This document shows, piece after piece, positions 25,816 to 56,903 of a stretch of 64,000 nucleotides of DNA. The notes under the pieces were generated by a model. That model ran no database searches. It was not told where the DNA came from and was given only the letters and a program-made list of their open reading frames with translations. The stretch is from an uncultured Methanosarcinales archaeon (GTDB taxonomy: Archaea; Nanobdellota; Nanobdellia; Woesearchaeales; JAGWAF01). Numbering within the stretch: the stretch's first letter is position 1; every line of letters starts with the position of its first letter. The stretch is from NCBI GenBank assembly GCA_964414985.1, contig CAYPXA010000002.1, positions 87,513 through 151,512 on the forward strand, written 5' to 3'. A program made the translations under genes and the position numbers.

Positions 25816-25911
25816 GCATTGCCACCCAGCGCAGTACTTATTTTGGACATTGTTCAAAAGGTGGCTCCTCAACAGAAGAGGTTCAATACTCAACACGAAG
25901 CTCGAGCAATG
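25816..25911 (+). repeat. MITE-like intergenic repeat, copy 1 (~96 bp)
   Basis: Shares >80% identity by eye with 35035-35131 and reverse complement of 56053-56148; begins GCATTGCCACC. Confidence 0.7.
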
Positions 25912-25961
25912 AAATCTATTTGAGTGATATCTTTTTATAATCCTCCTCCATAACATCCATC

Positions 25962-26564
25962 ATGAACTTCAGCAATGAAAAAAAGCAGTGCCTTGAAAAG
26001 TCTGATAAATCCAAAAAGCAGTCTGTAGACATCCGAATCAGGGAGATTGTTGATTTCATAAACTCCCTTGAAGACTACTACACTACAAGCAGCTGTTCAG
26101 GCAGGATACTGGTCATTGAAAATCTTGAAAGCAGAAAGAAGAATGAGGCTGAATGGCTTTTTGCATCTCATGAAAAGGCTTCTGTCCAGGACATAAAAAA
26201 TGCGCTGGCATCACCAAGCCGGAATTCAGCATGGCTCAAGCAGGAAGGCTTCATACTCCACATCTGCTGCAGGACTCTTGATGCTGCAGACAAAATAATC
26301 TCCCTTGCAAGGGACTGCGGGCTTAAGCGAAGCGGCGCAATATCCTTCAGCAAGAGGATTATTGTTGAAATATTGGGCACAGACCGCATTGAGGCAGTGC
26401 TTGCAAGGCATGGAGCTGTCATTGCATCTGACTCTTACATAGAAGCAGCTGCTGAAGAGGCCAATTTGAAGATGGAAAAGAACTTTGAAAGGCTGATTCT
26501 GTTTTTTGATGCGCTTAAGCGCAGGGCTCTAAATAATGCAGGGAATGCTCCAAAAGATTTATAA
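25962..26564 (+). CDS. tRNA wybutosine-synthesis protein 3-like (TYW3/Taw3 family)
   Basis: ~200 aa with SSCSGRI motif characteristic of TYW3. Confidence 0.55.
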   Translation: MNFSNEKKQCLEKSDKSKKQSVDIRIREIVDFINSLEDYYTTSSCSGRILVIENLESRKKNEAEWLFASHEKASVQDIKNALASPSRNSAWLKQEGFILHICCRTLDAADKIISLARDCGLKRSGAISFSKRIIVEILGTDRIEAVLARHGAVIASDSYIEAAAEEANLKMEKNFERLILFFDALKRRALNNAGNAPKDL

Positions 26565-26609
26565 ACTGCCTTCACCTATTCAGTTAGGGTTTTTAATTTT
26601 GGAGTGAAG

Positions 26610-26738
26610 ATGCTGATAAAATACGTGAAATACGTAAATGATCCCTGCTTTGGCGAGAAGTATGAGCAGCATGAGCAGTGTGAATCCTGCTGGGTCAAGA
26701 AGAGCTGCTTTGTAAGGTTCAGGAACCGCAAGGAATAA
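26610..26738 (+). CDS. possible 42-aa four-Cys zinc-ribbon mini-protein (not in ORF track)
   Basis: MLIKYVKYVNDPCFGEKYEQHEQCESCWVKKSCFVRFRNRKE; C-x10-C-x2-C-x6-C. Confidence 0.2.
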   Translation: MLIKYVKYVNDPCFGEKYEQHEQCESCWVKKSCFVRFRNRKE

Positions 26739-26811
26739 AAAATAAAAAAACAAATTCTTTTTCGTGCATTAACTCATTTGTGCATCAATTCCTTATATCT
26801 TATTATCTCAA

Positions 26812-27747
26812 TTATATCTTTGCAGGGCTTATCATTATCCTGCCTGAATACTTTCCTGCAGCAGCGCTTCCTGATGCTTTTACTGTGATTTTTGCTGATG
26901 CAAACTCTCCTGGCTGGATTGATATTCCTGCTGTTTTTGCTGAACTTTCGCACTTTCCAGTGTAGCTTCCTGAAGACAGCTCTACTGAAGTGGTGTTTGA
27001 TGAAAAGCCTGTGCAGTAAAACCTTATGCCTGCAGCCACGCTTCCTGTATTCTGTATTGAAACCTGCCTTTCATAAGCTGTGCCCTTTTCAATCTTGCCA
27101 AAGTCTATTTTTGAAGTGCTTACAGATATTCTCGGATTTGTGTCTTCTTTGACTTCAAATTCTATCCCAATTTCAGAGGCATTGCTTGCGCTGCTGCCCG
27201 AAGATCCAAATGAAGGCTGTGATTCAATAAAATCTTTTGAGTTGTCTCCTGTGTATGCAACCCTCATCAGCGAATTGCCTTCTGATGTTTCGTTTGCAGG
27301 AGTGCCTTTGAAGAACATTGAGCCGATTTCATCAGGGTTGCCCCATCCGACTGCATCAATTACATCATCATTCATCATGATTGCAACACCTGAATTTGTG
27401 TTGTAAAGGTTAATCAGCTCTTCATGGTCTGCATCAGGCCAGTCCTGGCTGTCTTTTGAGCTGTTCCAGCCAAGGTCTGCAACAAGATAGTAGCAGCCTG
27501 CGCAAAGAGTGGTGTTTTCGGGTATTACAGCGTCCCTTGAGCTTGCTTCTGTCGCAATTTTCAGGCCTCCGATGTTTTCTGCAGAATTTTGGTTATTGTA
27601 TATTTCTACAGCCTCTCCGCCGGATTCTGTGCCTATAGGGTTGTACAAAACCTGGCTGATGACCAGTGCGCTTCCTGCATATGAAAAGCAGGACAAAAAA
27701 AGTGTTACAGCCAAAGCTGAAGCCGCAAATTGTTTTGCATTTTTCAT
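26812..27747 (-). CDS. secreted protein with lamin-tail-domain (LTD)-like N-terminal region
   Basis: Signal peptide; ISQVLYNPIGTESGGEAVEIYNN resembles LTD core (EV.yNP.G.D.g.E.iEl.N). Confidence 0.55.
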   Translation of the reverse strand: MKNAKQFAASALAVTLFLSCFSYAGSALVISQVLYNPIGTESGGEAVEIYNNQNSAENIGGLKIATEASSRDAVIPENTTLCAGCYYLVADLGWNSSKDSQDWPDADHEELINLYNTNSGVAIMMNDDVIDAVGWGNPDEIGSMFFKGTPANETSEGNSLMRVAYTGDNSKDFIESQPSFGSSGSSASNASEIGIEFEVKEDTNPRISVSTSKIDFGKIEKGTAYERQVSIQNTGSVAAGIRFYCTGFSSNTTSVELSSGSYTGKCESSAKTAGISIQPGEFASAKITVKASGSAAAGKYSGRIMISPAKI

Positions 27748-27789
27748 GCAGCAATCAAAATAAAGAGAATTAAAATGGGTTTTGCAGAA

Positions 27790-28098
27790 TTATTCGCAAT
27801 ATTTCCGTGCTTCTTCGCTTTTGCATGCATTGCAGTGCCTGTAGTAAATCCTTGTCTTGGGGTCTTCCTGCATTATCTTTGTAAGAATAGTGCCTGCATG
27901 CTCACAGGGTATCAAAGGCACACGGTAATAATTACCCATAATGTTGAAGAAAACTGAAAGCGGGCATACAGGGCCGCTGATTGAAATCATCTCAATATCC
28001 TTTGACTTTGAGAATCCGCCTTCTCTGCACTCCTTAACTTGCTCTTCGATTGATTTTGTGCACTTATTGTTATTGCCTTCTTCAGCCATTTGTCTCAC
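27790..28098 (-). CDS. hypothetical Cys-containing small protein
   Basis: 102-aa ORF. Confidence 0.35.
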   Translation of the reverse strand: MRQMAEEGNNNKCTKSIEEQVKECREGGFSKSKDIEMISISGPVCPLSVFFNIMGNYYRVPLIPCEHAGTILTKIMQEDPKTRIYYRHCNACKSEEARKYCE

Positions 28099-28158
28099 TT
28101 ATTTCTTTTTTTGACTAAAAAATATAAATAAAGTAAAAAAACAAAAAAATGTTTTTGC

Positions 28159-29622
28159 TTACTTAACAATAAGCAGCTTTGCTATGATGAATGCGCCTGC
28201 CATCACTACAGCAGCTATTGCCAAAACCAAAAGAAGCACATAGACTGTGCTGTCCCTGAATCCCTGGCCTGATGTTCCTGTAACTGTTGTTACTGGGACT
28301 GTGCTGCCTGATGTTGGCTGAGCTTCAGCAACTCCTGCTCCTGCTGCTGCAGTTGCGCCTGTGCTTGTTGATGGCGCTGTTGCATTAGCCTGGGCTGGAG
28401 CGCTTGGCTGCTCTGCTTCGCATGACTTGATGTTTATTGACACTGTCTGCCTGTCTGTTTCCTTGCTCCTGTCATAGTAAGCTACTACAGTAAATGCCTT
28501 TGAGCCTGTAGAGTCAACTTCTGAAGGAATTGCAATGTCAAATACAACCTTCTTGTCATCGCCTTCGTCAAGCGAGAGGTCAACTTTCCATGAGTCTATC
28601 TCAAGGTCCTCGTTGTATATCCTGACTGCAGCTTCGTCCTCGTCATTCTTTCCTATGTTGGAAATGCTGACTTCAACAGCAACAGACTCTCCGCATGATG
28701 CTGTTGCAGGGCTGATAGTTGCAGAGTTAATCCTTATCTCGTGGTTGTTCTTCTTGACTTCAAAGTCGCCTTCAATCCTCTGGCCGTGCTTTGCGCCAAA
28801 GCTGTCTTCGCCTGCTGCTATAACCAGTATGTCATACTCGTCATCGTCAACATCATCTTCAACATCAAATGAGAACTCCAGTGTTTCCTCTTCTCCTGCG
28901 CCAATGTCGCCGAATTCGAGGTCATCATCCTCATCTATGTCTCCGCCGATTTCCCATTTTCCGTCATCAGCTTCGATGTCAATGTCGTCAGATGACTTGA
29001 ACCTGTTTTTTGCTGAAATTGTTAGCTTTACAGAATCGCCTGGCTTGACGTCATCAATTGAGTCTCCGTCATCCTTAAGGCTCTGTGTTTCTCCGCCGAT
29101 TTCAAAGTCAATGTCTGAAATCTCAATCATGTTTTTTCTCTGCATGTATGCATTGAATGTTGCAACTGTTGCAGTTCCTGCCTTGAGGGTTACTGCTGCA
29201 ATGTTGAATGCAGCTGCCTTCTGCTCTGAATTGACTGCATCCAGCTTTTCAGAAATCCTTGCCTTCAGTGTGATGTCTGCAGTGCTGTTTGCAGCGATTG
29301 TTACAGCGCTGACAAGGCTTATGTTCATGTCGCTCTCTGTAAACCCAAGGTTGTACAGTGCGCTTACTGAATTTATTGTGACTGCTGATACTCCATTGTT
29401 GTAGACTCTTACAACTCCGGTATCATAAACATTGTAGTCTGAATCATCGTCATCCAAATCCGGATTGCTTGCCTTCTGGTCAGCCCCTCCGAATATCGGG
29501 CTTGTTTCGCTGAATGTGCTTGTAACACTTACTGCTGCAAGTGCTGGTGCTGCAAAAACAGCCAAAATAAGCACAGCGCATAGGCCGAGTATTGAAAACT
29601 TCTTCATTTTTTGAACCCCCAT
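28159..29622 (-). CDS. acidic cell-surface protein with N-terminal signal peptide and C-terminal TM anchor
   Basis: Signal MKKFSILGLCAVLILAVFAAPALA; D/E-rich; C-terminal VYVLLLVLAIAAVVMAGAFIIAKLLIVK. Confidence 0.65.
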   Translation of the reverse strand: MGVQKMKKFSILGLCAVLILAVFAAPALAAVSVTSTFSETSPIFGGADQKASNPDLDDDDSDYNVYDTGVVRVYNNGVSAVTINSVSALYNLGFTESDMNISLVSAVTIAANSTADITLKARISEKLDAVNSEQKAAAFNIAAVTLKAGTATVATFNAYMQRKNMIEISDIDFEIGGETQSLKDDGDSIDDVKPGDSVKLTISAKNRFKSSDDIDIEADDGKWEIGGDIDEDDDLEFGDIGAGEEETLEFSFDVEDDVDDDEYDILVIAAGEDSFGAKHGQRIEGDFEVKKNNHEIRINSATISPATASCGESVAVEVSISNIGKNDEDEAAVRIYNEDLEIDSWKVDLSLDEGDDKKVVFDIAIPSEVDSTGSKAFTVVAYYDRSKETDRQTVSINIKSCEAEQPSAPAQANATAPSTSTGATAAAGAGVAEAQPTSGSTVPVTTVTGTSGQGFRDSTVYVLLLVLAIAAVVMAGAFIIAKLLIVK

Positions 29623-29713
29623 TTGTTTAGCTTAATAGCAGTATTTAACAGAAGTTAGTATTACACAGTAGTATATAAAGATTACTATACTTGGCGGACT
29701 ACACAATTGCTTT

Positions 29714-30115
29714 TTATTCCTCTTCCCGCATCTCTTCAAGCTCTTCTTCAGCGTCGCTTATCTCTTTTTCCATCTTTTTAATCTCTGCCTCTTCATCATT
29801 CTCGCTTTTTTCAAAAGCCTTGAGCTCCTTTTCAATCTCCTCTGCAGTGCCCAATGCCTTTTCTGCAAGCTCGCCGGATTTTTCCTCTTCTATGAAAAGC
29901 TCCTTGACTGTCTTGAGCTCGCTTATTGGAGGGTTTGCTGCAGCCTTTGCATGCGAAGCAGGGGCTTTTTTTTCAGTGCAGAGTATCTGCTTTGCCTTTT
30001 CGAATGCCTCTTCCATGTTTGCTGCAAGGTGGTTGTCCTTGAGCGATTTTGCGAGCTTGTTTACCTTTTCAGCAATTTTTGTATCCATTGTCTCACCTTG
30101 TTGTTGTAAACTCAT
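29714..30115 (-). CDS. acidic coiled-coil hypothetical protein
   Basis: 133 aa, E/K-rich. Confidence 0.45.
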   Translation of the reverse strand: MSLQQQGETMDTKIAEKVNKLAKSLKDNHLAANMEEAFEKAKQILCTEKKAPASHAKAAANPPISELKTVKELFIEEEKSGELAEKALGTAEEIEKELKAFEKSENDEEAEIKKMEKEISDAEEELEEMREEE

Positions 30116-30584
30116 CCTTCCAGATGTGGAAAAGCCTTTTGCCTTCCTTCTGCAGATTTGAGCTTACAATTTTTCCTATGAAAATGATATGGTCTCCTGC
30201 CTCGATTTCATTCACTACTTCGCATTCGGCATAGCCCAAAGCTCCTGAAATCCTCGGGCAGTCAACTGCCTGCGCCTCTTCAGCCTTAAGGCCTGCAGCG
30301 CTTATCTTGTCTTCATGCTCTCCTGAATGCCTGCCGATGTAGGCTGCGCTTTCCTTCATCTCAAAAGGCACAAAATTGACTACAAACACTCCTGAATCAT
30401 GAATCATCCCTGCGCTGAACCTGCCTTTTCCGATGGATATTGCATACATCTGAGGGTCAAGCGAGACAGGCATATGCCAGTCGACAGTTATTGCATTGTC
30501 TTTTTCAGCGCTTTTTCCGAGAACATCCACCTTTGACCTGCAGGTGATTATTACAGTCTGCCTGGGATTTGTCAGCGCTCCCAT
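30093..30584 (-). CDS. flavin reductase-like (FMN-binding split barrel) protein
   Basis: Length and pattern (SVGK.DK...nfipvSldPpm....s....T..ni..tgeFvvN) fit flavin reductase-like domain. Confidence 0.65.
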   Translation of the reverse strand: MGALTNPRQTVIITCRSKVDVLGKSAEKDNAITVDWHMPVSLDPQMYAISIGKGRFSAGMIHDSGVFVVNFVPFEMKESAAYIGRHSGEHEDKISAAGLKAEEAQAVDCPRISGALGYAECEVVNEIEAGDHIIFIGKIVSSNLQKEGKRLFHIWKDEFTTTR

Positions 30585-33244: not shown

Positions 33245-33254
33245 GAGGTGCGTT

Positions 33255-33533
33255 ATGGCTGCAAAAAAATCTTCAAAAAAGAAAAGTTCAGGAGACTCTG
33301 TAAGCATAAAGATAGACGGCATAGGAAAGATGGCTGACAAGGCAAAGTGCTTCACAATGACAAAATCATGCAGCTCTTCAGGAGGGTTTGCATACTTTCT
33401 TGCTGTTTTGGGAGCTGCAATCTACTATGTGTCGACAGCAGCAGGATTTTGGGCAGGAGTGCTTGGCATCCTGAAGGCGCTTGTTTGGCCTGCATTTCTC
33501 ATATTTGAAATAATGAAGTTTTTGGGAATGTAA
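33255..33533 (+). CDS. small membrane protein
   Basis: GAGGTG SD upstream; two hydrophobic helices. Confidence 0.4.
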   Translation: MAAKKSSKKKSSGDSVSIKIDGIGKMADKAKCFTMTKSCSSSGGFAYFLAVLGAAIYYVSTAAGFWAGVLGILKALVWPAFLIFEIMKFLGM

Positions 33534-33665
33534 TCTTGCTGTTTCTTTTATTTTTTTAACTTTTTTAGCATTATTTATTTCTTCAGTTTTTTAGTTTTCT
33601 TTATTTTTTGATTCTGCTGATTATTTTTCATTAGCTTTATTAACCATTATTCAATTTTCTGTCTT

Positions 33666-35018
33666 ATGAAAAAAGTCCTGCTTGCCTACCTTCCGTTCTG
33701 CACTCCTGCAGCACCGCCGTATTCAATAACCTACCTTGCATCTTTTCTCAAGGCAAACTGCAGCGATGAAATAATGGTGCTGGACTTAAATCTTGAATTC
33801 CACAAAATCAAGTTTCCAGAAGATGCAGAATATTTCAGGGATTCTGGCAGGTGGGCGGATTATGAAGAAAAGGCCCTCGAATACAAGAAGGTTTCTTTCA
33901 AGGCTTATGCTGACAGCAACAGGAATGTTGTGATGGGCGGAAAGCCTGAGCTTTTTGCAGAGATGCTTGAGATGATAGCTTCGCGCAAGCCTGACATAGT
34001 TGCCTTCAGCATAGTCTACTCAAGCCAGGCGTTCTATGCTTCGTGCATGCTTGATGAGCTTGCAAGGAGGGGAATAAAGACTGTTATTGGAGGCCCGGCT
34101 GCAAACGAGAAGCTTGGCAGGCTTGCCTCTGCATCGCTCTGCACAGAGTCTGATTTGCTTGAGTTCATAACAGGCGAAAAAAAAGATGAATCCAAATTAA
34201 ACTTCAATGTTGTTCCTGACTTTTCAGCATACAATCTTAAGGATTACTTTACTCCATTTCCGGTAATTCCTGTAAAAACATCAAGCAGCTGCTACTACAG
34301 GCAGTGCGCATTCTGCACACACTACAGCAAATCTCCTTATAAGGAATACCCTGTTTCACAGGTAAAAGAGGCAATCCTGAAATCAGGCCAGAAGCACTTT
34401 TTTCTTATAGACGACATGATTCCTGCAAAAAGGCTTCTTGAGATTGCAGAGGCAGTAAAAGGGCTTGGCATAAAATGGGCATGCCAGCTGAAGCCCACAA
34501 AAGAATTTACTTATGAAGTGCTGAAAAAACTCAATGAGTCAGGGCTTGTTATGCTTATGTGGGGCATTGAGTCAGGCAGCAGCAGAATACTTGACCTTAT
34601 CAAAAAAGGTACAAATCCTGCAGACATGGAAAAAGTCCTTGAAGCTTCGCACAGGGCAGGCATCAAAAACATTGCATACATGCTGTTTGGATTTCCGACA
34701 GAAACAAAATCAGAGTTTCTTGAGACAATTGATTTTCTGAAAAGGAACGAGAAGAGAATAGACCTTGTTTCCTGCTCGATTTTCGGGCTGCAGAAAGGCA
34801 CAGCTGTTTATTCAAATCCGTCTGGCTTCTGCATAACTGAAATCATTGAGGAGAAAAGGACTTTTCTTGAGCCGAGCATTTCATACAAGTGCAGCGCAGG
34901 GCTTTCAGAAGACGAGGCTTCAAAGCTTCTTTCAAGGCACAGGAAGCTAATCTGCAGGATAAACAAATACCCGAAGATAATGAACTTCTTCAGGGAGCAC
35001 ATGCTGTGCATGCTTTGA
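33666..35018 (+). CDS. B12-binding radical SAM enzyme (class B)
   Basis: CYYRQCAFC = CxxxCxxC radical-SAM cluster motif; N-terminal cobalamin-binding-like region. Confidence 0.8.
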   Translation: MKKVLLAYLPFCTPAAPPYSITYLASFLKANCSDEIMVLDLNLEFHKIKFPEDAEYFRDSGRWADYEEKALEYKKVSFKAYADSNRNVVMGGKPELFAEMLEMIASRKPDIVAFSIVYSSQAFYASCMLDELARRGIKTVIGGPAANEKLGRLASASLCTESDLLEFITGEKKDESKLNFNVVPDFSAYNLKDYFTPFPVIPVKTSSSCYYRQCAFCTHYSKSPYKEYPVSQVKEAILKSGQKHFFLIDDMIPAKRLLEIAEAVKGLGIKWACQLKPTKEFTYEVLKKLNESGLVMLMWGIESGSSRILDLIKKGTNPADMEKVLEASHRAGIKNIAYMLFGFPTETKSEFLETIDFLKRNEKRIDLVSCSIFGLQKGTAVYSNPSGFCITEIIEEKRTFLEPSISYKCSAGLSEDEASKLLSRHRKLICRINKYPKIMNFFREHMLCML

Positions 35019-35034
35019 TTAAGCTGAAGCATAA

Positions 35035-35131
35035 GCATTGCCGCCAAGCGCAGTACTCCTTATTTGAGTTTGATTAACACGTGACTCCTTTGAAGAAGAG
35101 GTGCAATGAGCAACACGAAGCGCGGCAATGC
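35035..35131 (+). repeat. MITE-like intergenic repeat, copy 2 (~97 bp)
   Basis: GCATTGCCGCCAAGCGCAGTACT...GAAGCGCGGCAATGC with 10-bp TIR; overlaps ORF-track metG extension. Confidence 0.7.
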
Positions 35132-35198
35132 AATAACTTATGATGCTGTTTGCTTTTTCTTCGCAATATTTAAATACAAACCTGATTTTTCAGATTGC

Positions 35199-37334
35199 AT
35201 GGCAGAAAAGGCAAAATCTGTAAATGGCAGCGGAAGCAGCAAACTCAGCGAAAGCAAAGCAGCAAAAAGCGCAAAGACCAAGATAGTTGTGACTTCAGCG
35301 CTGCCTTATGCAAACGGAAGCATCCACATCGGCCATCTTATCGAGTATATCCAGACAGACATTTTTGTAAGGTTCCTGAAATCAATCGGAGAAGATGCAA
35401 TCTACTGCTGCGCTGACGACACCCACGGAACCCCGATCCAGATAAAAGCAGAGCAGATGGGAATAACGCCTGAAGCGCTGATTGCAAAATACCACGAGGA
35501 GCACCTTAAGGACTTCAGGGCTTTCCACATTGACTTTGACTCATACTACACTACAAACAGCCCTGAAAACAGGAAGTATTCAGAGCAGATATTCAATGAG
35601 CTCAAAAAGAAGGGAGACATCTACACAAAGGAGATAACCCAGACTTACTGCGAGAAATGCAGGAGGTTTCTTCCAGACAGGTATGTAAGGGGAGAATGCC
35701 CGAACTGCGGAGCGCCTGACCAGTACGGCGATGTCTGCGAGAAGTGCGGAAAGGCGCACTCAACAACAGACTTGATAGGCCCAAAATGCGCAATCTGCGG
35801 CAGCCCTGCATCCAAAAAAGGGTCTGTCCATTACTTCTTCAAGCTCACCAATTATGAAAGCAGGCTCAAAAAATGGTTTGAGGAAAACAAAAATCTGCAG
35901 CCTGAAATAGTCAATTCAGTTTCAAACTGGTTCAAGCAAGGGCTTCAGGACTGGGACATCTCAAGGGACGGGCCTTACTTCGGCTTTAAAATTCCAGGCG
36001 AGACAGACAAGTACTTTTATGTCTGGCTTGACGCTCCTGTAGGATATATTGCATCAACTGCAAACTACTGCAAAGGAAAGGATTTTGACGAGTCTGAATA
36101 CTGGAAAAAGCCCACAGGCAGGGTAATTCACGTTATAGGAAAGGACATAATCTACTTCCACTACCTGTTCTGGCCTGCAATGCTAATGGGCTCAGGGTTC
36201 AACCTGCCGGAATACATTTTGACCCACGGCTTCATCACAGTAAACGGAGAGAAGATGTCAAAGAGCAGGGGAACATTCTACACTGCATCAGAGTTCTTAA
36301 GCAAGTTTGACCCGCAGTACTTAAGGTATTATTATGCATCCCTGCTTAGCAGGAAAATGTCAGACATAGACTTAGACTTTAAGGAGTTCCAGGCAAAAGT
36401 CAACAACGAGCTTGTTGCAAACATTGCAAACTTCTGCTTCAGGGTGCTCACTTTTACAAAGAAGAACTTTGAAGGAAAGATAGAGGGAATTGACGAGAAC
36501 AAGGAGCTTTTTGCAAATGTGCTAAGGCATGCTGAAAATGCAAAGCAGTCATATTCAGAATTTAATTTTACAAATGCAGTGAAGGAGATACTTGCGCTTT
36601 CATCTGAAGGAAACAAGTACTTCCAGGAGAATGAGCCGTGGAAGCTTGTCAAGGAAGACCCTGAAAAGGCCCAAAAAATATTAGGGACATGCATAAACAT
36701 TGCAAGGATACTTTCAATAGTCATTGCTCCTGTGCTGCCAAAGTTTGCAGCAGACTTGAGGGAGCAGCTCAATCTTCAGGCATTAAAATGGAGCGATATT
36801 GATTTCAGCCTGAAGAGCCACGAGATAGGGAATGCTGAAATACTCATAAGAAAGCTTGATGAGCTTCCTGCAGAAAAGGAAACTTTTCCAATCAATCTGA
36901 AGGTTGCAAAAATAATCTCTGCAGAGCCGCACCCTGAAGCTGAAAAGCTTGTAGTCCTGCAGATAGACCTCGGAAAGGAGAAGAGGCAGATTGTTGCAGG
37001 AATAAGGAAGTTCTACAAGGTTGAGGAGCTCTGCGGAAGGAACATAGTTGTTGTCACAAATCTGAAGCCTGCAAAGCTTAGGGGGAAGGAAAGCAACGGA
37101 ATGCTTCTTGCAGCAGGAGAGAATGCAAGCCTGCTTTCAGCTCCGCTCTCGCACCCGGGAGACCAGGTTTTTGTTGAAGGTATGGACACTGGAACAGCCA
37201 AGGTCGGCATTGAGGAGTTTGCAAATGTCCAGCTGTCTGTTTCAGCAGGAAAAGCATGCTACAAGGGAAAGGCATTAAGGACTTCAAAAGAGGAGATATC
37301 TGTAAATGCGAAAGACGGAGAAAAAATCAAGTAA
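35199..37334 (+). CDS. metG: methionyl-tRNA synthetase with C-terminal EMAP/Trbp111-like tRNA-binding domain
   Basis: HIGH (IHIGHL) and KMSKS motifs, zinc knuckles CPNCG/CEKCG; TATTTAAATA box ~25 nt upstream of ATG 35199 (leaderless). Confidence 0.9.
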   Translation: MAEKAKSVNGSGSSKLSESKAAKSAKTKIVVTSALPYANGSIHIGHLIEYIQTDIFVRFLKSIGEDAIYCCADDTHGTPIQIKAEQMGITPEALIAKYHEEHLKDFRAFHIDFDSYYTTNSPENRKYSEQIFNELKKKGDIYTKEITQTYCEKCRRFLPDRYVRGECPNCGAPDQYGDVCEKCGKAHSTTDLIGPKCAICGSPASKKGSVHYFFKLTNYESRLKKWFEENKNLQPEIVNSVSNWFKQGLQDWDISRDGPYFGFKIPGETDKYFYVWLDAPVGYIASTANYCKGKDFDESEYWKKPTGRVIHVIGKDIIYFHYLFWPAMLMGSGFNLPEYILTHGFITVNGEKMSKSRGTFYTASEFLSKFDPQYLRYYYASLLSRKMSDIDLDFKEFQAKVNNELVANIANFCFRVLTFTKKNFEGKIEGIDENKELFANVLRHAENAKQSYSEFNFTNAVKEILALSSEGNKYFQENEPWKLVKEDPEKAQKILGTCINIARILSIVIAPVLPKFAADLREQLNLQALKWSDIDFSLKSHEIGNAEILIRKLDELPAEKETFPINLKVAKIISAEPHPEAEKLVVLQIDLGKEKRQIVAGIRKFYKVEELCGRNIVVVTNLKPAKLRGKESNGMLLAAGENASLLSAPLSHPGDQVFVEGMDTGTAKVGIEEFANVQLSVSAGKACYKGKALRTSKEEISVNAKDGEKIK

Positions 37335-38164: not shown

Positions 38165-39337
38165 ATGAACAGCAAGATTCTTCTGGCGGTTTTGGCTGTG
38201 GCAATGCTCATGGCCTCAGGATGCGTCTCTGTGATAAAGACTCCCGGAGAAAACATCACTTACGAGGAAAGCGTTGCGACTGAAATAGGGATTCCAGCAG
38301 GCCTGGAAGAGGCTGATGAGCCTGAAGCAGGCTCTGCGCTTCCGACAAAAACAGTAGTTGAAGGGGAAAAAGTCAGCTTTCCAAATTTGAAGGCTGTTGA
38401 CCCTGACGGCGACCCGATAACTTATACATTCACAAAGCCTTTGGACAGCAAGGGAGAGTGGCAGACCAAGAAGGGCGATGCAGGCCAGTACAAGGTGCTG
38501 ATAACAGCATCAGACGGCACAAGCAAAGTTTCGCAGGAAGTCCTTATTGTTGTCAAATCACTCAACAAGATTCCAGTCCTTGGAGGGCTTGAAGACATTG
38601 CAGTTGAGGAAGGCCAGACAGTATCATTGAGCCCTGCAGCTACAGACGCAGACGGCGATGATGTCAAGCTTTCATTTTCAGGCTGGATGGACTCTGCATC
38701 AAAAGAGACATCATACGGCGATGCAGGAGTGCATGAAGTCACAGTGACAGCTGATGACGGAAAGGATTCTGTATCCAAAACCATAAAGGTTACAGTCAAG
38801 AAAGTGAACAGGGCTCCAGTGCTTGACGCATTTGACGACGTCCAGGTTACTGAAGGCGACAGCATTTCAGTCAAGGCAAGCGCAGCAGATGCTGACGGCG
38901 ACGATGTCGTGATTAAGTTTTCAGAGCCTTTGGACAGCAACGGCGAGTGGAAGACTGAAGTTGGCGATGCAGGAAAATACAAGGTAAAGGTAACTGCATC
39001 AGACGGCGCTTCAGAGGCTGTTGAGTCATTCTACCTGACAGTTGTTTCAGCAAACAAGGCGCCTGTCCTTTCAGGAATCAATGACATCACTGCTAAAGAG
39101 GGAGACCTTATAACCCTCTCAATAACTGCAGCAGACCCTGAAGGCGATGATGTAGCCATATCATTCAGCCAGCCATTTGATGCTGAAGGAAAATGGCAGA
39201 CAGGATATGAGGATGCAGGCAGCTATGAGGTTGTTGCAACAGCTTCAGACGGAAATTCAGAGTCCAAGCAGTCCTTCAAGGTTACAGTGCAGGACTACAA
39301 CAGGGCTCCGGCATTTTCAGAAGGCGCGTTTGAGTAA
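38165..39337 (+). CDS. lipoprotein-like surface protein with four tandem cadherin-like (dystroglycan-type) ~85-aa domains
   Basis: Signal + Cys (ASGCVS); repeated D(A/P)DGD(D/P)....S.P...G.W.T..GDAG.YKV...ASDG units; strong GAGGTGG SD. Confidence 0.65.
   Translation: MNSKILLAVLAVAMLMASGCVSVIKTPGENITYEESVATEIGIPAGLEEADEPEAGSALPTKTVVEGEKVSFPNLKAVDPDGDPITYTFTKPLDSKGEWQTKKGDAGQYKVLITASDGTSKVSQEVLIVVKSLNKIPVLGGLEDIAVEEGQTVSLSPAATDADGDDVKLSFSGWMDSASKETSYGDAGVHEVTVTADDGKDSVSKTIKVTVKKVNRAPVLDAFDDVQVTEGDSISVKASAADADGDDVVIKFSEPLDSNGEWKTEVGDAGKYKVKVTASDGASEAVESFYLTVVSANKAPVLSGINDITAKEGDLITLSITAADPEGDDVAISFSQPFDAEGKWQTGYEDAGSYEVVATASDGNSESKQSFKVTVQDYNRAPAFSEGAFE
38370..39300 (+). repeat. four tandem ~250-bp intragenic repeats encoding cadherin-like domains
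   Basis: Protein-level periodicity visible. Confidence 0.55.
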
Positions 39338-51552: not shown

Positions 51553-51554
51553 TT

Positions 51555-52430
51555 TTATTCCTCCTTTAGACTCTTATATCCTGCAATTCCATTGATTTTC
51601 TTTTCTGAATCATTATCCAGAGTTATAAATCCTGGAACTCCCTTGTACAATGCAGTGTTTGCATTAACATCAATCATTATATTGCCAAGCGCAACTTCAA
51701 GAACAATTCTTGGCAGGATAACCCAGTCGCTTTTTTCCTTCAGCATGCTCTGAAGCGTTTTTGGGTTTTTTTCATTTCCTATTTCCAGCTTTGGCCCGAT
51801 TCCGAGAATAGGCCCGTCATCCATGTTTTCTCCTGCGCCTTTGTAAGGAGTTGCGAGAATCACGCTTGACCTCAAGTAATCAAGGCCTTCGTCCAGCGCC
51901 CTTTCAACAGGAACTGTGTGAAGCCCGACAAGATGCCTTTGCCCATTTTTCATGTAAGTAAGGTCTCCAGGGTGCACATTAAGGCAGGGAAACTCTTCCA
52001 TTATGTTTGTCAAAGGCTCAAACCCGCCGAAAACTCCAAAGTCAACTTGATACGGCTTTAGAATCATGCCCAATATTTTTGTGTATTCTTCCCTTGCTTT
52101 TCTGCCTTCTTCAGTCTTCAGCGTCTTTTTTACTTTCATCTCCCTGTGGAAGTCGCTTATGTCAAAAATGACAAGCTCTCTCTTCCACTCCTTGGCAATC
52201 TTATCGGCATTTGATGAATAGTTGTCTGTCACAATCACTCTCATTCTGAAAGGAGCATCCTCGCCAAGAGTCTGCTCAAGGCTTCTTTCAGATTCAAGCA
52301 CTTTTACAATGTTTGTGCCAGAGCCGCTCATAAAGCCTGCAACAACTGCCGGCGCATGAGGCTTTGGATTGTATACCCTTTCAATGCAATGGGCATCTTG
52401 GCTTTCCGGATTCAAATTTATTCTGTTCAT
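51555..52430 (-). CDS. purN: formyltransferase family protein (PurN-like GAR transformylase)
   Basis: SGSGTN N-terminal motif, NVHPG motif; located within pur operon. Confidence 0.6.
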   Translation of the reverse strand: MNRINLNPESQDAHCIERVYNPKPHAPAVVAGFMSGSGTNIVKVLESERSLEQTLGEDAPFRMRVIVTDNYSSNADKIAKEWKRELVIFDISDFHREMKVKKTLKTEEGRKAREEYTKILGMILKPYQVDFGVFGGFEPLTNIMEEFPCLNVHPGDLTYMKNGQRHLVGLHTVPVERALDEGLDYLRSSVILATPYKGAGENMDDGPILGIGPKLEIGNEKNPKTLQSMLKEKSDWVILPRIVLEVALGNIMIDVNANTALYKGVPGFITLDNDSEKKINGIAGYKSLKEE

Positions 52431-52448
52431 AGTATGTCACCTGATTTC

Positions 52449-53567
52449 CTAATTCACCAGCTCGTCAACTATCTTCTGCAGGCCTGAAATTATCCTTTCC
52501 TCCCTGGTTCTCAAATCAGGCACAAAAGGCTTTTTGAGAAGGTGCTGTATTCCTTCTATGTACCTTGCAGCAATCTCTATCCTCTGCTCTTCTGTGAAGC
52601 TTTCATCGCCTTTTGCCAGGCCTCTTGCAAATTCCTTTGAGTAGGAAATCGGGCTTATTTTGCTGATTTCGCCTTTCAGGAATTTTGCCATCTGCTGATT
52701 GTAGTCGTCACGCATCCAGAATCTTGAAGAGTCCATTGTCCAGATTTCGTCCCGCGAAACAATAATGCCTTTGGTGTTCTTGCCGTGCTCTGTTTTTGTG
52801 TCAACAGCAATCATTCCCCTTTCGCCCATAAACTGGTCAACAATGCCGAATGCAAAAATCGAGCCGTTCCTTATCTGCCTGTATTCTTCCGGAGTGCATA
52901 CTCCCATCTCAAATAATTTTGCAGGAGACACAGACTCATCATGCACATCTGACTTTGTTGAGGGAGTGTCCATTATATAAGGCAAAGGCCCGTTTGCAAC
53001 AAGGTTTTCAGGAAGCGTATGCCCGCAAAAGCTTCTGCTTCCTTTCATAAAATGCTGGTATAATGAGGTTGATGTCGGGCTTTCTGCCATAAATGCCCTT
53101 AGGACATTTTCAAAATCTATCGGCTCAAGGTTTTCTGCTGCAATGACAATTGAGCCGTCATCCAGCCCAGGCACTTCAAACTGCGATGTGCCGATTGCAT
53201 GCTCTACAAGCTTTCTCATGTAGTTGTGGTTTTCTGCAAGAATCTGGGCTTTGAATGGAACATATCCCCTGTTCACATCCTGGGTTGAGATTCTTTCAGT
53301 CCTTACCATCAGCCTTAGGGGAATTCCGTCTTTTGTTTCCAGCTCTGGATTTTCAAATACGCATTCTGCGCCTGTTTTTTTGTCAATATAATCCCCTTCT
53401 CCTCCAAAAATAGAATCTGAAACCTTTCCAGGCTTTACGCAAAATCCTTTCAGCTTGGGAACTGCGCCTGAATCAAGAATTTCCTGCGTTGTGACAATCT
53501 TCTTCTCATTTGCAATATACTTCATTGCAGCATCTTTTGCCTCATCCTTGCTCATGTATTTTTCCAT
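52449..53567 (-). CDS. purC: SAICAR synthetase (PurC) with N-terminal extension
   Basis: ERISTQDV (cf DRISAFD) and SRDEIWTMDSSRFW (cf GDEFSPDGSRLWD) motifs. Confidence 0.65.
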   Translation of the reverse strand: MEKYMSKDEAKDAAMKYIANEKKIVTTQEILDSGAVPKLKGFCVKPGKVSDSIFGGEGDYIDKKTGAECVFENPELETKDGIPLRLMVRTERISTQDVNRGYVPFKAQILAENHNYMRKLVEHAIGTSQFEVPGLDDGSIVIAAENLEPIDFENVLRAFMAESPTSTSLYQHFMKGSRSFCGHTLPENLVANGPLPYIMDTPSTKSDVHDESVSPAKLFEMGVCTPEEYRQIRNGSIFAFGIVDQFMGERGMIAVDTKTEHGKNTKGIIVSRDEIWTMDSSRFWMRDDYNQQMAKFLKGEISKISPISYSKEFARGLAKGDESFTEEQRIEIAARYIEGIQHLLKKPFVPDLRTREERIISGLQKIVDELVN

Positions 53568-53671
53568 ATCAGCATCTACCTCATCTGTTTTTTAGAATAT
53601 TATTTCAAAGGCTCTTCGCTTAGAATCTGGAATTTTGTTTATAAGCCCCATTGCGATTCGTGATTATCAAA

Positions 53672-53716
53672 TACTATATAAGTTTTTCCTGCGTTTTTTC
53701 GTCTAAAAAAGTGGTA
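53672..53716 (-). promoter_or_regulatory. purC-operon promoter: BRE/TATA (GGAAAAACTTATATA on coding strand) plus upstream conserved motif ACCACTTTTTTAGACGAAAAA
   Basis: Motif shared with purE upstream region. Confidence 0.45.
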
Positions 53717-53720
53717 AAAT

Positions 53721-54638
53721 CTAGCTCTTCATCACTTTTCCGTTCATCACAATATACTGGGGAGAGTTTTCAAGCGACTCTCTTTTTGCATTCATCTTTT
53801 TTGCATATTCCTGAATTGAGGGCTCATCCTCAAAAATCCTTGCAGCGAGCATTGCAGCGTTCCCTACTCCTGCAGAGCCCAATGGAAGAGTTCCTGTTGC
53901 GCGAAGCCCGTTAAATGAGCTCATGTACTTGTTTGCAAACCCTGCAAATGACTCTTTCTTTGAAGGGCACAAAAGCGCTATCTGGAACCCGCCTGAATCT
54001 GCAAGGGCATTGTCGATTGCTCTTGCTTCTGCGCATGAAAGCGTAAAATCCTCATTATAAACTGAAATAAGGAAGCTGCCCTTTGCCTTTTCACAGGCTT
54101 CATCTGCTGTTTTTCCGTCAATTGCGCCTATGCATTCCAGCCTGTCGCCTATTTTCAGTTCAGCAAATTTCGATTTGAGCAGCTCTATTGAGCCTTCGTT
54201 CTTTTGGCCATACTGCGCAACAAGCGCATTGCCTAATTTTTTTGTTTCAATTGCATACGCTATGTTGAGGCAGCTTTCAATGTTGTCTACGCCTGTGCAT
54301 ATCACAGGATGGTTTGGAGGCATCTCTGAAATTGAAAGGAATGCTGAAAGCCCTCCCCAGTAAGCATCAGACAACGGAACTCCTATGCTTACCTCATTTG
54401 GGTAAGTATAGCATGCCTCAATTATGCCAGGCAGTGCTGCAGACATTCCTGCTCCGCTTGCAATTGCCTTTGCTTCAGGAAGAACCATTTCAACCCTTGC
54501 AGGAGTGTTGTGGGCAGATGCAAACTTTACAATAACTCCCAGGTCAGGATTCTTTTGTGTGGCATTTACTATCCCATCTACAACCTTCTGGTTTTTCCAG
54601 TCTGAATCTGAGCCGAAAATAATTGTTATGCCTGCCAT
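53721..54638 (-). CDS. purE: N5-CAIR mutase / AIR carboxylase PurE, extended (305 aa) form with partial second PurE-like half
   Basis: GSDSD, SAHNTP, GAGMSAALPG, SISEMP motifs; C-terminal half repeats G-rich PurE segment (LPLGSAGVGNAAMLAARIF). Confidence 0.75.
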   Translation of the reverse strand: MAGITIIFGSDSDWKNQKVVDGIVNATQKNPDLGVIVKFASAHNTPARVEMVLPEAKAIASGAGMSAALPGIIEACYTYPNEVSIGVPLSDAYWGGLSAFLSISEMPPNHPVICTGVDNIESCLNIAYAIETKKLGNALVAQYGQKNEGSIELLKSKFAELKIGDRLECIGAIDGKTADEACEKAKGSFLISVYNEDFTLSCAEARAIDNALADSGGFQIALLCPSKKESFAGFANKYMSSFNGLRATGTLPLGSAGVGNAAMLAARIFEDEPSIQEYAKKMNAKRESLENSPQYIVMNGKVMKS

Positions 54639-54699
54639 TTTTTCCTCCGTTTTTTATTTTTGAATATTCTGCTTTGAAAAGAACAACATTGCGTATATA

Positions 54700-54745
54700 A
54701 TTTTTTCCCAATATTTTTCGTCTGAAAAAGTGGTTACATCGCTGT
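54700..54745 (-). promoter_or_regulatory. purE promoter: GGAAAAAATTATATACG plus upstream motif CCACTTTTTCAGACGAAAAA; GGAGG SD before ATG
   Basis: Paralogous to purC upstream region. Confidence 0.45.
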
Positions 54746-54851
54746 TTGCTGCCTTGCTTTTCTCCGCAACCTTTAAATAGCCCCATCTCATTCTGGGTGT
54801 ATTCTTATGCTGAGTCGGCGTGCTTAAGACCGGCTCGGGAGGTTTAAGAAA

Positions 54852-55250
54852 ATGGCAGAATTCAAAGCGGTTATAGGCTTGAAGAGCGGAAAATGCGTCC
54901 AGAAAGAGATTAAGGAAGACCAGGCTAAGCCTCTTCTCGGAATGAAGATAGGCGACAAAGTCAATGGAAATGAGATTGGCTTTGAAGGCTATGAGTTTGA
55001 GATAACAGGCGGAAGCGACTACTGCGGATTTCCAATGAGGAAAGACGTTGACGGCCAGGCAAGAAAAAGGATACTTGCAATCGGCGGAGTCGGCCTTAAG
55101 AAAGCTGGAAAGGGAATAAGGCAGAGGAAGACAGTCTGCGGAAACACAATCCACGCAAAGATTGCGCAGGTCAACCTCAAAGTCCTGAAAGAAGGAAAGG
55201 AAAGCCTTGAGCCTGCAGAAAGCAAGGCAGAAGAGAAGCCTGCTGAGTAA
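54852..55250 (+). CDS. rps6e: ribosomal protein S6e
   Basis: Close match to archaeal S6e pattern (KIGD...GYEFEITGGSD..GFPMR.D..G..RKRIL...G.G....KG.R.RKTV.GN.I...I.QVN.KV). Confidence 0.8.
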   Translation: MAEFKAVIGLKSGKCVQKEIKEDQAKPLLGMKIGDKVNGNEIGFEGYEFEITGGSDYCGFPMRKDVDGQARKRILAIGGVGLKKAGKGIRQRKTVCGNTIHAKIAQVNLKVLKEGKESLEPAESKAEEKPAE

Positions 55251-55358
55251 ATTCTCTTTTTTTATTGTTTTTTTTCTTTCTCAAGATATTGCTGCGGGCC
55301 TTTATTCAGAGCATGTTAATGGGAAAAGTTTAAATACTCAGTTTTTCTTTTTTGTATT

Positions 55359-56012
55359 ATGGCAAAAGAGGATGGCAAGGATGATGAACTGGATTTCTCA
55401 AGCCAGCAGTTTTTCATGCCAAGATTCAATACTCTTCATAATCTTGCAAAGGAGCAGCTAAGGCGAAGCGAGGTTTCATCAGCAAAGGAAACTTATTCAA
55501 GGATGCTTTCAATATACGACCAGATAAACAAGAGCCAGATAAGCACAAATGACAAGCAGATGGCTTATGGAAAGCTGATGTATGTTTTTACAGCGCTTTC
55601 AAATGATGAGGCATATGAGCCGATGACAGGGATAATGCCTCTTGCAAAATACATTGTGCCTGCATCAATGGTTGTTCTTGTACTCCTCATAATCTTCTTT
55701 GTCAAGCCTGAATTTTCGCTTACAGGACTTGTAGTTGCAGATTCAAACACTGCTCCATACTGGTCAGCTGAAGGCGCAGTCTTCAAGGTCAGCGGAGAAA
55801 CTTATATAAGCCTTGGCGCATACTTTGCTGATGCTGAAGGAGACGGACTTTCTTACTCTGTAGGCGCTGCTCCAGGCTTGCAGCTTTCAGTTGAGGGAAG
55901 CACTTTGAAGATTGTTCCTGAAGAATACGCATTCGGAAGGATAGCTGTTCCAATCACTGCTTCAGACTCAAGGAAAGAAACAACCTATTATGTTACTGCA
56001 GAAATAATCTGA
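55359..56012 (+). CDS. membrane-anchored protein with C-terminal cadherin-like domain
   Basis: TM helix; YFADAEGDGLSYSV...ITASD motif similar to 38165 protein repeats. Confidence 0.45.
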   Translation: MAKEDGKDDELDFSSQQFFMPRFNTLHNLAKEQLRRSEVSSAKETYSRMLSIYDQINKSQISTNDKQMAYGKLMYVFTALSNDEAYEPMTGIMPLAKYIVPASMVVLVLLIIFFVKPEFSLTGLVVADSNTAPYWSAEGAVFKVSGETYISLGAYFADAEGDGLSYSVGAAPGLQLSVEGSTLKIVPEEYAFGRIAVPITASDSRKETTYYVTAEII

Positions 56013-56052
56013 TTTCTTTGATTAATTTATTTTGCGATTTGCTGATAATGCT

Positions 56053-56148
56053 GCATTGCCGCGCTCCGTGTAGACAATTGGACAGCTTCGTTGCAGGAGT
56101 CACCTTTTGAAAGATGTCCAGAACAAGTACTTCGCTTGGCGGCAATGC
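56053..56148 (-). repeat. MITE-like intergenic repeat, copy 3 (~96 bp, inverted orientation); followed by 15-bp partial direct duplicate GCTTGGCGGCAATGC at 56170-56184
   Basis: Reverse complement aligns along full length with copies 1 and 2; TIR GCATTGCCGC/GCGGCAATGC. Confidence 0.7.
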
Positions 56149-56165
56149 TGCTTACTTTTTAATTA

Positions 56166-56903
56166 ATGTGCTTGGCGGCAATGCAGTTCATGCTGATTGT
56201 TATGTTTCTTGGTTTGATTAAACTCCCAAAAGCCTTTTATACTAATGTTTTCAAGATGTCAGCAATGCATAAAAACCTCAAGATTGTGTTGCTCTGCTTT
56301 GAGTTTGCAATTATATTTCTCGCTCTGCCTGTGCTCTACCTTATGTTTCCGATACTCCCAAAAATACCGCTCCTGCTTTTGATGACAATGTACTGCTTTG
56401 CAGCAATGATTATAGACAAGAAATTTCCAATCGGCTCGCTTATGGACGGAAAGGAAGCGCTCAAAAAGGAGATTAATCCAATAATGAAAAGGTTTGTGTT
56501 CTTTGCGCTTCTGATAGCTGCGCTTGTTTTTGCCTTTAGGAAAGAGCTGCTTTTCTCGTTTCCTTTGCAGAATGTATACCTTTGGGTCGGAGTAATGCTT
56601 TTGTACCCAATATTTTCAGCATACCCCCAGGAGCTTATCTACAGGTCTTTCTTCTTCTGGAGGTACAAGCAGATTTTCAAAAGCAAATTTTTGATAGGAA
56701 TGATGAGCGCATGGCTTTTTGCATTCATGCACATAGTCTATTTCAACCCTGTTGCAATACTCTTCTCTTTGATTGGAGGAATAATCTTTGCAAGGACTTA
56801 TGCGAGGACAAATTCGCTGCTGATAGTTGCATTTGAGCACGCGCTTTACGGAGCATATATCTTTACGATTGGACTGGGAGTTTATTTCTATTCGGGAATG
56901 TAG
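56166..56903 (+). CDS. CPBP family intramembrane metalloprotease (CAAX protease/Abi)
   Basis: EELIYRSFFF (EExxxR) and FAFMHIVYFN (FxxxH) motifs; start uncertain because first codons lie inside repeat fragment. Confidence 0.7.
   Translation: MCLAAMQFMLIVMFLGLIKLPKAFYTNVFKMSAMHKNLKIVLLCFEFAIIFLALPVLYLMFPILPKIPLLLLMTMYCFAAMIIDKKFPIGSLMDGKEALKKEINPIMKRFVFFALLIAALVFAFRKELLFSFPLQNVYLWVGVMLLYPIFSAYPQELIYRSFFFWRYKQIFKSKFLIGMMSAWLFAFMHIVYFNPVAILFSLIGGIIFARTYARTNSLLIVAFEHALYGAYIFTIGLGVYFYSGM

What the first reader, a model, noticed from the sequence alone, without database searches (positions are those of the whole stretch)
25816..56184. A ~96-bp MITE-like repeat family with 10-bp terminal inverted repeats in three intergenic regions
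Copies at 25816-25911 (+), 35035-35131 (+) and 56053-56148 (-) align over their full length. Consensus is roughly GCATTGCCGCCAAGCGCAGTACTT..TTTGGACAT.TTCAAAAGGTG.CTCCT.AAC.GAAG.GGTTCAAT..TCAACACGAAGC.CG.GCAATGC. Terminal inverted repeat is GCATTGCCGC / GCGGCAATGC. All copies are intergenic. Copy 3 is followed 21 bp later by a 15-bp duplicate of its own terminus (GCTTGGCGGCAATGC at 56134-56148 and 56170-56184). This resembles a target-site or partial-end duplication, or a tandem fragment. The element could be a non-autonomous transposable element, a structured small RNA family, or a recombination/regulatory site. Copy 2 explains a false 5' extension of the metG ORF in the six-frame track. The duplicated terminus of copy 3 overlaps the annotated start of the CPBP protease ORF.
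Basis: seen in the sequence. Interest (0 to 1): 0.65.

Follow-up and report, generated by a model that had tools for sequence, protein, structure and literature searches.

The report
MITE-like intergenic repeat in a Woesearchaeon
Three copies of a ~96-bp non-coding repeat with 10-bp inverted ends lie between genes of a Woesearchaeota (DPANN archaeon) genome; it is most likely a small non-autonomous transposon (MITE), an ordinary kind of genomic parasite.

Summary
Three full copies (25816-25911 +, 35035-35131 +, 56053-56148 -) each match a joint profile at E ~1e-28. A solo 15-23-nt 5'-end fragment lies at 56162-56184 (-). Copies 2 and 3 have perfect 10-bp terminal inverted repeats (GCATTGCCGC/GCGGCAATGC); copy 1 is decayed.

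The host is a Woesearchaeota archaeon. All copies sit between the stop codon of one gene and the TATA box of the next, in both orientations. No reading frame is open in all three copies. There is no Rfam match, no tRNA and no covariation.

Between copies 2 and 3 the ends are far better conserved (40/43) than the interior (31/54; p = 7e-5).

The element is absent from 67 kb of relatives' DNA, including four orthologous metG loci.

Independent assemblies of four sequencing runs all break at the same bases inside copies 2 and 3 but run through decayed copy 1. This implies near-identical sibling copies elsewhere.

Best reading: a MITE-like non-autonomous DNA transposon family, confidence 0.55. Target-site duplications are not consistent, and no transposase lies in the window. 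No other copies could be retrieved from public collections. It is a new member of a known kind and of low to moderate interest.

The parts
25816..25911 (+). Copy 1. A decayed copy between the NTP_transf_2 gene (24951-25766) and TYW3 (25962-26564). It ends about 20 nt upstream of the TYW3 TATA box (25932-25941). Its TIR is degenerate (GCATTGCCAC / GAGCAATG).
   Evidence: E = 3.6e-28. Logan contigs of four runs pass through it unbroken.
35035..35131 (+). Copy 2. An intact copy, 16 nt after the stop of a radical SAM gene (33666-35018) and about 35 nt upstream of the metG TATA box (35167-35176). TIR arms are 35035-35044 and 35122-35131. Its internal ATG at 35106 creates the false 31-codon extension of metG (35106-35198).
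   Evidence: (E = 3e-28). Contigs of four runs stop at 35092 or start at 35069.
56053..56148 (-). Copy 3. An intact copy in the opposite orientation, between a 217-aa gene (55359-56012) and the CPBP/Rce1-like gene. TIR arms are 56053-56062 and 56139-56148. It is flanked by AGCA on both sides in the element's orientation.
   Evidence: E = 3.5e-29. Contigs of four runs stop at 56101; the contig from the other side, seen in one run (L134), stops at 56120.
56162..56184 (-). Solo 5'-end fragment. 15 nt are identical to the element's 5' terminus (GCATTGCCGCCAAGC, 56170-56184), with weaker similarity for 8 more nt. It has no 3' partner. It is a truncated second copy or an end duplication, not a target-site duplication.
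   Evidence: model positions 1-23, E = 0.17

Best explanation
This is a family of miniature inverted-repeat transposable elements (MITE-like, about 96 bp) in a Woesearchaeota genome.

Proposed mechanism (inferred): a transposase encoded elsewhere in the genome, or formerly in it, binds the conserved ends. These are the 10-bp TIR GCATTGCCGC plus about 13 further conserved subterminal bases at the 5' end and about 9 at the 3' end. The transposase cuts and pastes the DNA into new sites.

Copies survive only in the narrow neutral zone between the end of one gene and the TATA box of the next. That is where all three are found, in either orientation.

Copies 2 and 3 belong to different subfamilies that share the ends but differ in the interior. 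They still have near-identical siblings elsewhere. Copy 1 is an old copy that is decaying. The solo end at 56162-56184 is the remnant of another copy.

Shown here: the repeat, its TIRs, the lack of coding capacity, the intergenic position, the conservation gradient, the absence from relatives, and reproducible assembly breaks. Inferred: transposition, the transposase, and copy number outside the window.
For: (1) Three full copies and one fragment occur in 64 kb, each at E ~1e-28 to a joint profile.

(2) Copies 2 and 3 have perfect 10-bp TIRs.

(3) No frame is open in all three copies, and a 1-nt indel shifts frames between copies.

(4) All copies lie between the upstream stop codon and the downstream TATA box. 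The median inter-ORF gap in the window is about 44 nt. The gaps holding the element are 195, 180 and 153-250 nt, roughly 96 nt longer than typical.

(5) Both orientations occur relative to the flanking genes.

(6) Between the two intact copies the ends are 40/43 identical and the interior 31/54 (Fisher p = 6.6e-5). This is expected if only elements with intact ends propagate.

(7) The element is absent from 67 kb of five loci of related Woesearchaeota, including four orthologous metG upstream regions that keep the same promoter block.

(8) In four separate run assemblies (SRR14492170-73), contigs stop at exactly 35092 (all four runs) or start at exactly 35069 (shown in two runs) in copy 2. In copy 3 they stop at exactly 56101 (all four runs), and the contig from the other side stops at 56120 (one run). 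They run straight through decayed copy 1 and through tens of kb of flanks. With k = 31 this pattern implies other sequences sharing exact stretches of 30 nt or more with copies 2 and 3, that is, sibling copies.

(9) A published census reports MITEs in 20% of archaeal genomes and names a Woesearchaea genome among the densest, at 105 per Mb (PMC11602168). Three copies in 64 kb is about 47 per Mb.
Against: There is no consistent target-site duplication. Copy 3 has AGCA/AGCA, copy 2 has ATAA/AATA (which matches only after a 1-nt shift), and copy 1 has none.

The TIR is only 10 bp, the lower bound of MITE definitions.

No transposase or integrase domain is found in any window ORF scanned. No longer element is bounded by the same TIR.

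No further copy could be retrieved from genome, metagenome, viral, phage or plasmid collections.

Pairwise identity of 73-76% is low for a recently active family.

The assembly breaks could instead reflect strain variants at these loci.
Confidence: 0.55

Rival explanations
1. A multi-copy family of small non-coding RNA genes, or RNA processing/stability elements, of about 96 nt. The RNA would be closed by the 10-bp terminal stem, with a variable interior.
For: Intact copies fold better than shuffles on either strand (z = -2.3 to -3.1), driven by the terminal stem. Conserved ends with a variable interior are also seen in guide-type RNAs. Copy 1's arm substitutions would be G-U compatible on the reverse strand.
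Against: There is no Rfam family at gathering or at permissive thresholds and no tRNA. The consensus fold has a positive (penalising) covariation term on both strands, and no interior helix is kept in all three copies. No TATA-like box lies at a constant distance upstream in either orientation (direct reading). No C/D boxes or K-turn are present (direct reading). Copy 1 has lost the stem on the forward strand. The element is absent from relatives.
Confidence: 0.12
2. DNA sites recognised by a protein other than a transposase. These could be recombination sites marking inserted gene cassettes (attC-like) or operator/architectural sites upstream of promoters.
For: Copy 2 sits at the 3' end of a radical SAM gene. 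That gene, plus a 92-aa ORF, fills a slot upstream of metG that holds different genes in each of four relatives. Copy 1 also lies at a synteny break just upstream of TYW3. The size of about 96 bp, the inverted ends and the variable centre resemble attC sites. Two copies lie just upstream of promoters of tRNA-related genes (TYW3, metG).
Against: The ends do not carry the attC core GTTRRRY/RYYYAAC (direct reading). Only 10 bp of the arms pair. The copies are 9 and 21 kb apart rather than in a cassette array. No integrase is in the window. Copy 3 is inverted relative to its neighbours. Relatives are so distant that synteny breaks are frequent anyway. A 96-bp operator shared by unrelated genes would be unusual. 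The metG promoter block is conserved in relatives without the element.
Confidence: 0.12
3. Paralogous duplication of an intergenic or promoter segment, or a chance resemblance, with no mobility and no function.
For: Only three copies could be seen directly. No target-site duplications are evident.
Against: The E-values are about 1e-28. The flanking genes are unrelated. The flanks do not align beyond the TIRs. One copy is inverted. Assembly breaks point to more copies.
Confidence: 0.04

Closest known systems
Prokaryotic MITEs in general, as censused in archaea (MITE-Tracker survey, PMC11602168). A Woesearchaea genome is reported there with about 105 MITEs per Mb.
   Same: Size within the 50-800 bp range. 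TIR of at least 10 bp. No ORF. Intergenic position. Several copies per genome. Taxon-restricted distribution. Density of the same order (about 47 per Mb in this window).
   Different: Target-site duplications are not demonstrable here. Whether this particular family is in that survey's sequence set could not be checked, because its supplements are not held.
Sulfolobus solfataricus SM1-SM4 MITEs (archaeal MITEs whose TIRs match resident IS elements; recalled from my own knowledge, not checked here).
   Same: Archaeal, roughly 80-350 bp, TIR-bounded, non-coding, dispersed in intergenic DNA.
   Different: For the SM elements the partner IS elements and TSDs are known. Here neither is shown. There is no sequence similarity.
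Neisseria Correia elements (NEMIS), Streptococcus RUP and enterobacterial ERIC (bacterial ~100-150-bp TIR repeats; recalled from my own knowledge, not checked here).
   Same: About 100 bp. Terminal inverted repeats able to form a long-range stem in read-through transcripts. Subfamilies with different interiors. Located between genes, close to promoters.
   Different: Those are bacterial. Correia elements have 26-bp TIRs and a TA duplication, and they carry promoter and IHF sites. None of this is seen here.
Integron attC sites, including those reported in archaeal MAGs (recalled from my own knowledge, not checked here).
   Same: About 60-140 bp. Inverted ends with a variable centre. Positioned just 3' of a gene that occupies a variable slot (copy 2).
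   Different: There are no GTTRRRY/RYYYAAC core sites, no near-full-length hairpin, no cassette array and no integrase nearby.

Membership tests
MITE (non-autonomous class II element) | Small size (about 50-800 bp) and no coding capacity | tested here: met
   The copies are 96-97 bp. No frame is open in all three, and a 1-nt indel shifts frames between copies 2 and 3.
MITE (non-autonomous class II element) | Terminal inverted repeats of at least 10-15 bp | tested here: met
   Copies 2 and 3 have perfect 10-bp TIRs. This is the lower bound of the definition quoted in PMC11602168. Copy 1 is degenerate.
MITE (non-autonomous class II element) | Target-site duplication of 2-10 bp flanking each copy | tested here: inconclusive
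   Copy 3 has AGCA|...|AGCA. Copy 2 has ATAA|...|AATA, which matches only after a 1-nt shift. Copy 1 has none. Three copies are too few to decide.
MITE (non-autonomous class II element) | Multiple dispersed copies in one genome | tested here: met
   The window holds three copies plus one fragment in 64 kb. Further copies are inferred from identical contig breakpoints inside copies 2 and 3 across run assemblies: four runs from one side of each copy, one or two runs from the other.
MITE (non-autonomous class II element) | A cognate autonomous IS or transposase with matching TIRs | not testable with these tools
   No transposase domain was found in the window ORFs. No longer TIR-bounded unit is present. 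The remaining ~88 kb of the source contig and the rest of the MAG could not be fetched.
MITE (non-autonomous class II element) | Insertion polymorphism (empty sites in close relatives) | tested here: inconclusive
   The element is absent from four orthologous metG loci and one TYW3 locus of relatives. These relatives are 52-74% identical at protein level, and gene order differs at the very sites, so no exact empty site can be aligned.
Any Rfam RNA family / tRNA | Match to a curated covariance model, or a tRNA cloverleaf | tested here: not met
   No hits at gathering threshold in the window. Only chance-level hits (E of 1.5 or higher, none of them on the element itself apart from a weak 14-bit InvR overlap) appear at permissive thresholds. 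ARAGORN finds no tRNA.
Integron attC site | R''/R' core sites (RYYYAAC ... GTTRRRY), a near-full-length imperfect hairpin, tandem cassette array, IntI nearby | tested here: not met
   The ends read GCATTGCC.../...GGCAATGC. Only the terminal 10 bp pair. The copies are 9.2 and 21 kb apart. No integrase domain was found. No attC covariance model was available.
Diversity-generating retroelement TR/VR pair | Mismatches confined to template adenines; VR inside a target gene; reverse transcriptase nearby | tested here: not met
   Substitutions affect all four bases. All copies are intergenic. No RT domain was found.
Archaeal C/D box sRNA | C box RUGAUGA and D box CUGA near the termini forming a K-turn | tested here: not met
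   Neither box is present on either strand of the consensus (direct reading).

The most novel reading that the evidence does not exclude
The repeats may not be selfish DNA. They could be a DPANN-specific family of functional elements with conserved ends and an exchangeable interior. One version is ~96-nt RNAs closed by the 10-bp stem (guide-like or processing modules). The other is attC-like recombination sites that mark gene cassettes dropped into variable slots, such as the radical SAM gene upstream of metG.
Probability: 0.1. Interest if true: 0.6.

Novelty: new member of a known kind. Interest (0 to 1): 0.27.

Why it matters
If it is a MITE, it is a marker of past or present transposase activity in a small DPANN genome.

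It also has practical consequences:
- It fragments short-read assemblies at fixed points.
- It has already produced at least one wrong gene model in public data, the 742-aa metG whose first 31 codons start inside the element.
- It inflates the ORF of the neighbouring CPBP gene.

Its copy number and flanks in the full MAG would give a simple strain marker. Biologically it is an ordinary kind of element. It does not open a new question unless the RNA or recombination-site reading turns out to be true.

Tried and rejected
**Exact-pattern scans**
- The conserved 5' block (GCATTGCCNCCNAGCGNAGTACT) in GTDB species genomes gave one hit. It lies inside a coding region of an Acidobacteriota MAG with no further similarity, so it is chance.
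- The same block gave no hits in JGI metagenomes or IMG/VR.
- A TIR-only gapped pattern in metagenomes gave more than 120 hits, and 8 in IMG/VR. None resembles the element's interior by nhmmer.
- A 3'-end pattern and an interior pattern were scanned in IMG/VR. The first gave none; the second gave one chance hit.
- blastn against phage and plasmid collections found nothing.

**Other searches for copies**
- A 498-aa concatenate of the six-frame translations of the three copies was searched against 5.8 billion proteins, to catch copies mis-called as ORFs. No hit scored E of 10 or lower.
- The 152,629-bp NCBI source contig could not be fetched. Only Logan contigs were indexed.
- The MITE census paper's sequence supplements are not held.
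- No paper mentions the SRA runs.

**Readings considered and rejected**
- tRNA or tRNA-derived element: no T-arm can be drawn, and ARAGORN is negative.
- K-turn or C/D sRNA: no GA/GA or boxes.
- DGR repeat.
- att sites of an integrated element between copies 1 and 2: identity is only 75%, and the 9 kb between them is syntenic core DNA in relatives.
- Small peptide gene: there are stops and frameshifts.


Full report
**What is there**

Reading the three stated intervals and aligning them confirms a 96-97-nt repeat. The copies are at 25816-25911 (+), 35035-35131 (+) and 56053-56148 (-).

Pairwise identity is 73-76%. An nhmmer profile built from the three finds each at E = 3e-28 to 4e-29. The only other hit of note in the 64-kb window is a 23-nt piece of the 5' end at 56162-56184 (-), of which 15 nt are exact.

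Copies 2 and 3 begin with GCATTGCCGC and end with its exact reverse complement. Copy 1 has a substitution in the 5' arm, and a substitution plus a 1-nt insertion in the 3' arm. The flanks do not align beyond these ends, so the inverted repeats are the boundaries.

**Host and setting**

The best named relatives of metG are Candidatus Woesearchaeota. TYW3, TFIIB and S6e are present. The genome is therefore a DPANN archaeon of about 43% G+C.

Genes are tightly packed, with a median gap of about 44 nt between maximal ORFs. Promoters are of the leaderless archaeal type, with a TATA box 25-27 nt before the ATG:
- TYW3: TATA at 25932-25941, ATG at 25962.
- metG: TATA at 35167-35176, ATG at 35199.

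The metG promoter block GCAA(C)ATTTAWAWA is conserved in relatives.

Each copy lies between the stop codon of the upstream gene and the TATA box of the downstream gene. These gaps are about 96 nt longer than usual.

Copies 1 and 2 have the same orientation as their neighbours; copy 3 is inverted. The neighbouring genes are unrelated to one another:
- an NTP_transf_2 protein and TYW3;
- a radical SAM protein and metG;
- a 217-aa protein and a CPBP/Rce1-like protease.

**What it is not**

- *Not coding.* No frame is open in all three copies, and an indel shifts the frame between copies 2 and 3.
- *Not a known RNA.* Rfam gives nothing at gathering thresholds and only chance-level hits at permissive ones. 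ARAGORN finds no tRNA.
- *No support for a conserved RNA fold.* Single-sequence folds of the intact copies beat shuffles only because of the terminal stem, and equally on both strands. Consensus folding gives a penalising covariation term on both strands, and no interior helix is shared by all copies.
- *No C/D boxes or K-turn, and no attC core sites* (direct reading).
- *Not a DGR repeat.* Substitutions hit all four bases.
- *No transposase, integrase or reverse transcriptase domain* in any window ORF that I or the Logan annotation scanned.

**Evidence bearing on mobility**

*(a) Conservation gradient.* Between the two intact copies the terminal 24 + 19 nt are 40/43 identical, while the interior is 31/54 identical (p = 6.6e-5). 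The interior is also mosaic: copy 1 resembles copy 3 on the left and copy 2 on the right. This is the pattern of subfamilies that must keep their ends in order to propagate.

*(b) Absence from relatives.* The element is absent from 67 kb of DNA from related Woesearchaeota. This includes four loci orthologous to the metG region (metG 72-74% identical) and one TYW3 locus (52% identical). In every relative the gene upstream of metG is different. These comparisons therefore show lineage restriction but not an exact empty site.

*(c) Reproducible assembly breaks.* This is the most informative point. The collection holds independent Logan assemblies of four runs (SRR14492170-73) of this same organism.
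- In all four runs the contig coming from the left stops at window base 35092.
- The contigs from the right, retrieved for two runs, start at 35069. Both positions are inside copy 2.
- In all four runs the contig from the left stops at 56101. The contig from the right, retrieved for one run, stops at 56120. Both positions are inside copy 3.
- The same assemblies run straight through decayed copy 1 and through up to 21 kb of flanking sequence.

For a k = 31 graph these breakpoints mean that other DNA in the sample shares exact stretches of 30 nt or more with copies 2 and 3. The shared stretch is about 35063-35098 in copy 2. In copy 3 there is one on either side of 56102-56119. The other DNA then diverges from copies 2 and 3 beyond these stretches.

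The simplest source is sibling copies of about 90-97% identity elsewhere in the genome. Strain variants at the same loci are the alternative, and I cannot exclude them.

**What is missing**

Target-site duplications are not consistent. Copy 3 has AGCA on both sides, copy 2 has ATAA/AATA, and copy 1 has none.

The 15-nt duplicate next to copy 3 is element sequence, not target sequence. It is best read as the stump of another copy.

No additional copy could be retrieved from GTDB species genomes, JGI metagenomes, IMG/VR, phage or plasmid collections, or from called proteins.

**Verdict**

The architecture and context fit a MITE-like non-autonomous transposon better than any rival, and I put this at 0.55. 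The remainder is split as follows:
- a small-RNA family, 0.12;
- a protein-binding or recombination site, 0.12;
- inert duplication, 0.04;
- other unknowns.

MITEs are already reported to be dense in at least one Woesearchaea genome (PMC11602168). This is therefore a new member of a known kind.

Its visible effects are practical. It supplies the ATG for the false 31-codon extension of metG: the public product P0001 is 742 aa, against 690 aa in orthologues that align from residue 55-56. It also lengthens the apparent CPBP ORF, and it breaks short-read assemblies.

Noticed in passing
window 53675-53721 and 54694-54740 (read on the - strand): Two purine-biosynthesis genes, SAICAR synthase (52449-53567, -) and AIR carboxylase (53721-54638, -), share an 81%-identical 47-nt upstream block. 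It reads ACCACTTTTTYAGACGAAAAA..GGAAAAAMTTATATA and ends in the TATA box. Its 20-mer core occurs only at these two places (0.02 expected). It is a candidate operator of a purine regulon.
   Followed up: partly
window 35106-35198; public protein P0001: The public gene model of metG (742 aa) carries a false 31-codon N-terminal extension that starts at an ATG inside repeat copy 2. The real start is ATG 35199, 26 nt after a promoter block conserved in relatives.
   Followed up: yes
window 56166-56265: The longest ORF of the CPBP/Rce1-like gene starts at 56166, and Logan calls it from 56190. The TATA-like box at 56235-56245 suggests a leaderless start at ATG 56265. The solo repeat fragment is therefore probably not coding.
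   Followed up: partly
window 33245-35131, compared with L138:5744-6209, L140:1002-2034, L151:3781-5773 and L152:3493-4209: The slot immediately upstream of metG holds different genes in every relative. The window has a 92-aa ORF plus a B12-binding radical SAM gene plus the repeat. The relatives have nothing, two small ORFs, a 519-aa gene, or a metallophosphoesterase. This is a gene-content hotspot.
   Followed up: partly
L149:9760-9960 (GCA_964577685.1): In a related Woesearchaeon, what look like two tRNA genes (read by eye, not run through ARAGORN) lie directly upstream of TYW3, where the window has repeat copy 1. The window itself has no tRNA gene in 64 kb.
   Followed up: no
window 12407-13422 and 38433-39253: In-frame repeats occur inside large secreted proteins: four units of about 267 nt in the subtilase/fn3/CARDB protein (10523-13756), and three units in the PKD/He_PIG-like protein (38165-39337). 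These are repeated Ig-like domains, unrelated to the MITE-like element.
   Followed up: no
window 54654-55154 (-) versus 54852-55250 (+): The 166-aa minus-strand ORF is spurious. The real gene is ribosomal protein S6e on the plus strand, so 54639-54851 is a divergent promoter region.
   Followed up: yes
L151:5640-5745: A relative has a short tandem repeat (units like AACTGAAACTG / AATTGAAACTT) directly upstream of its metG promoter.
   Followed up: no
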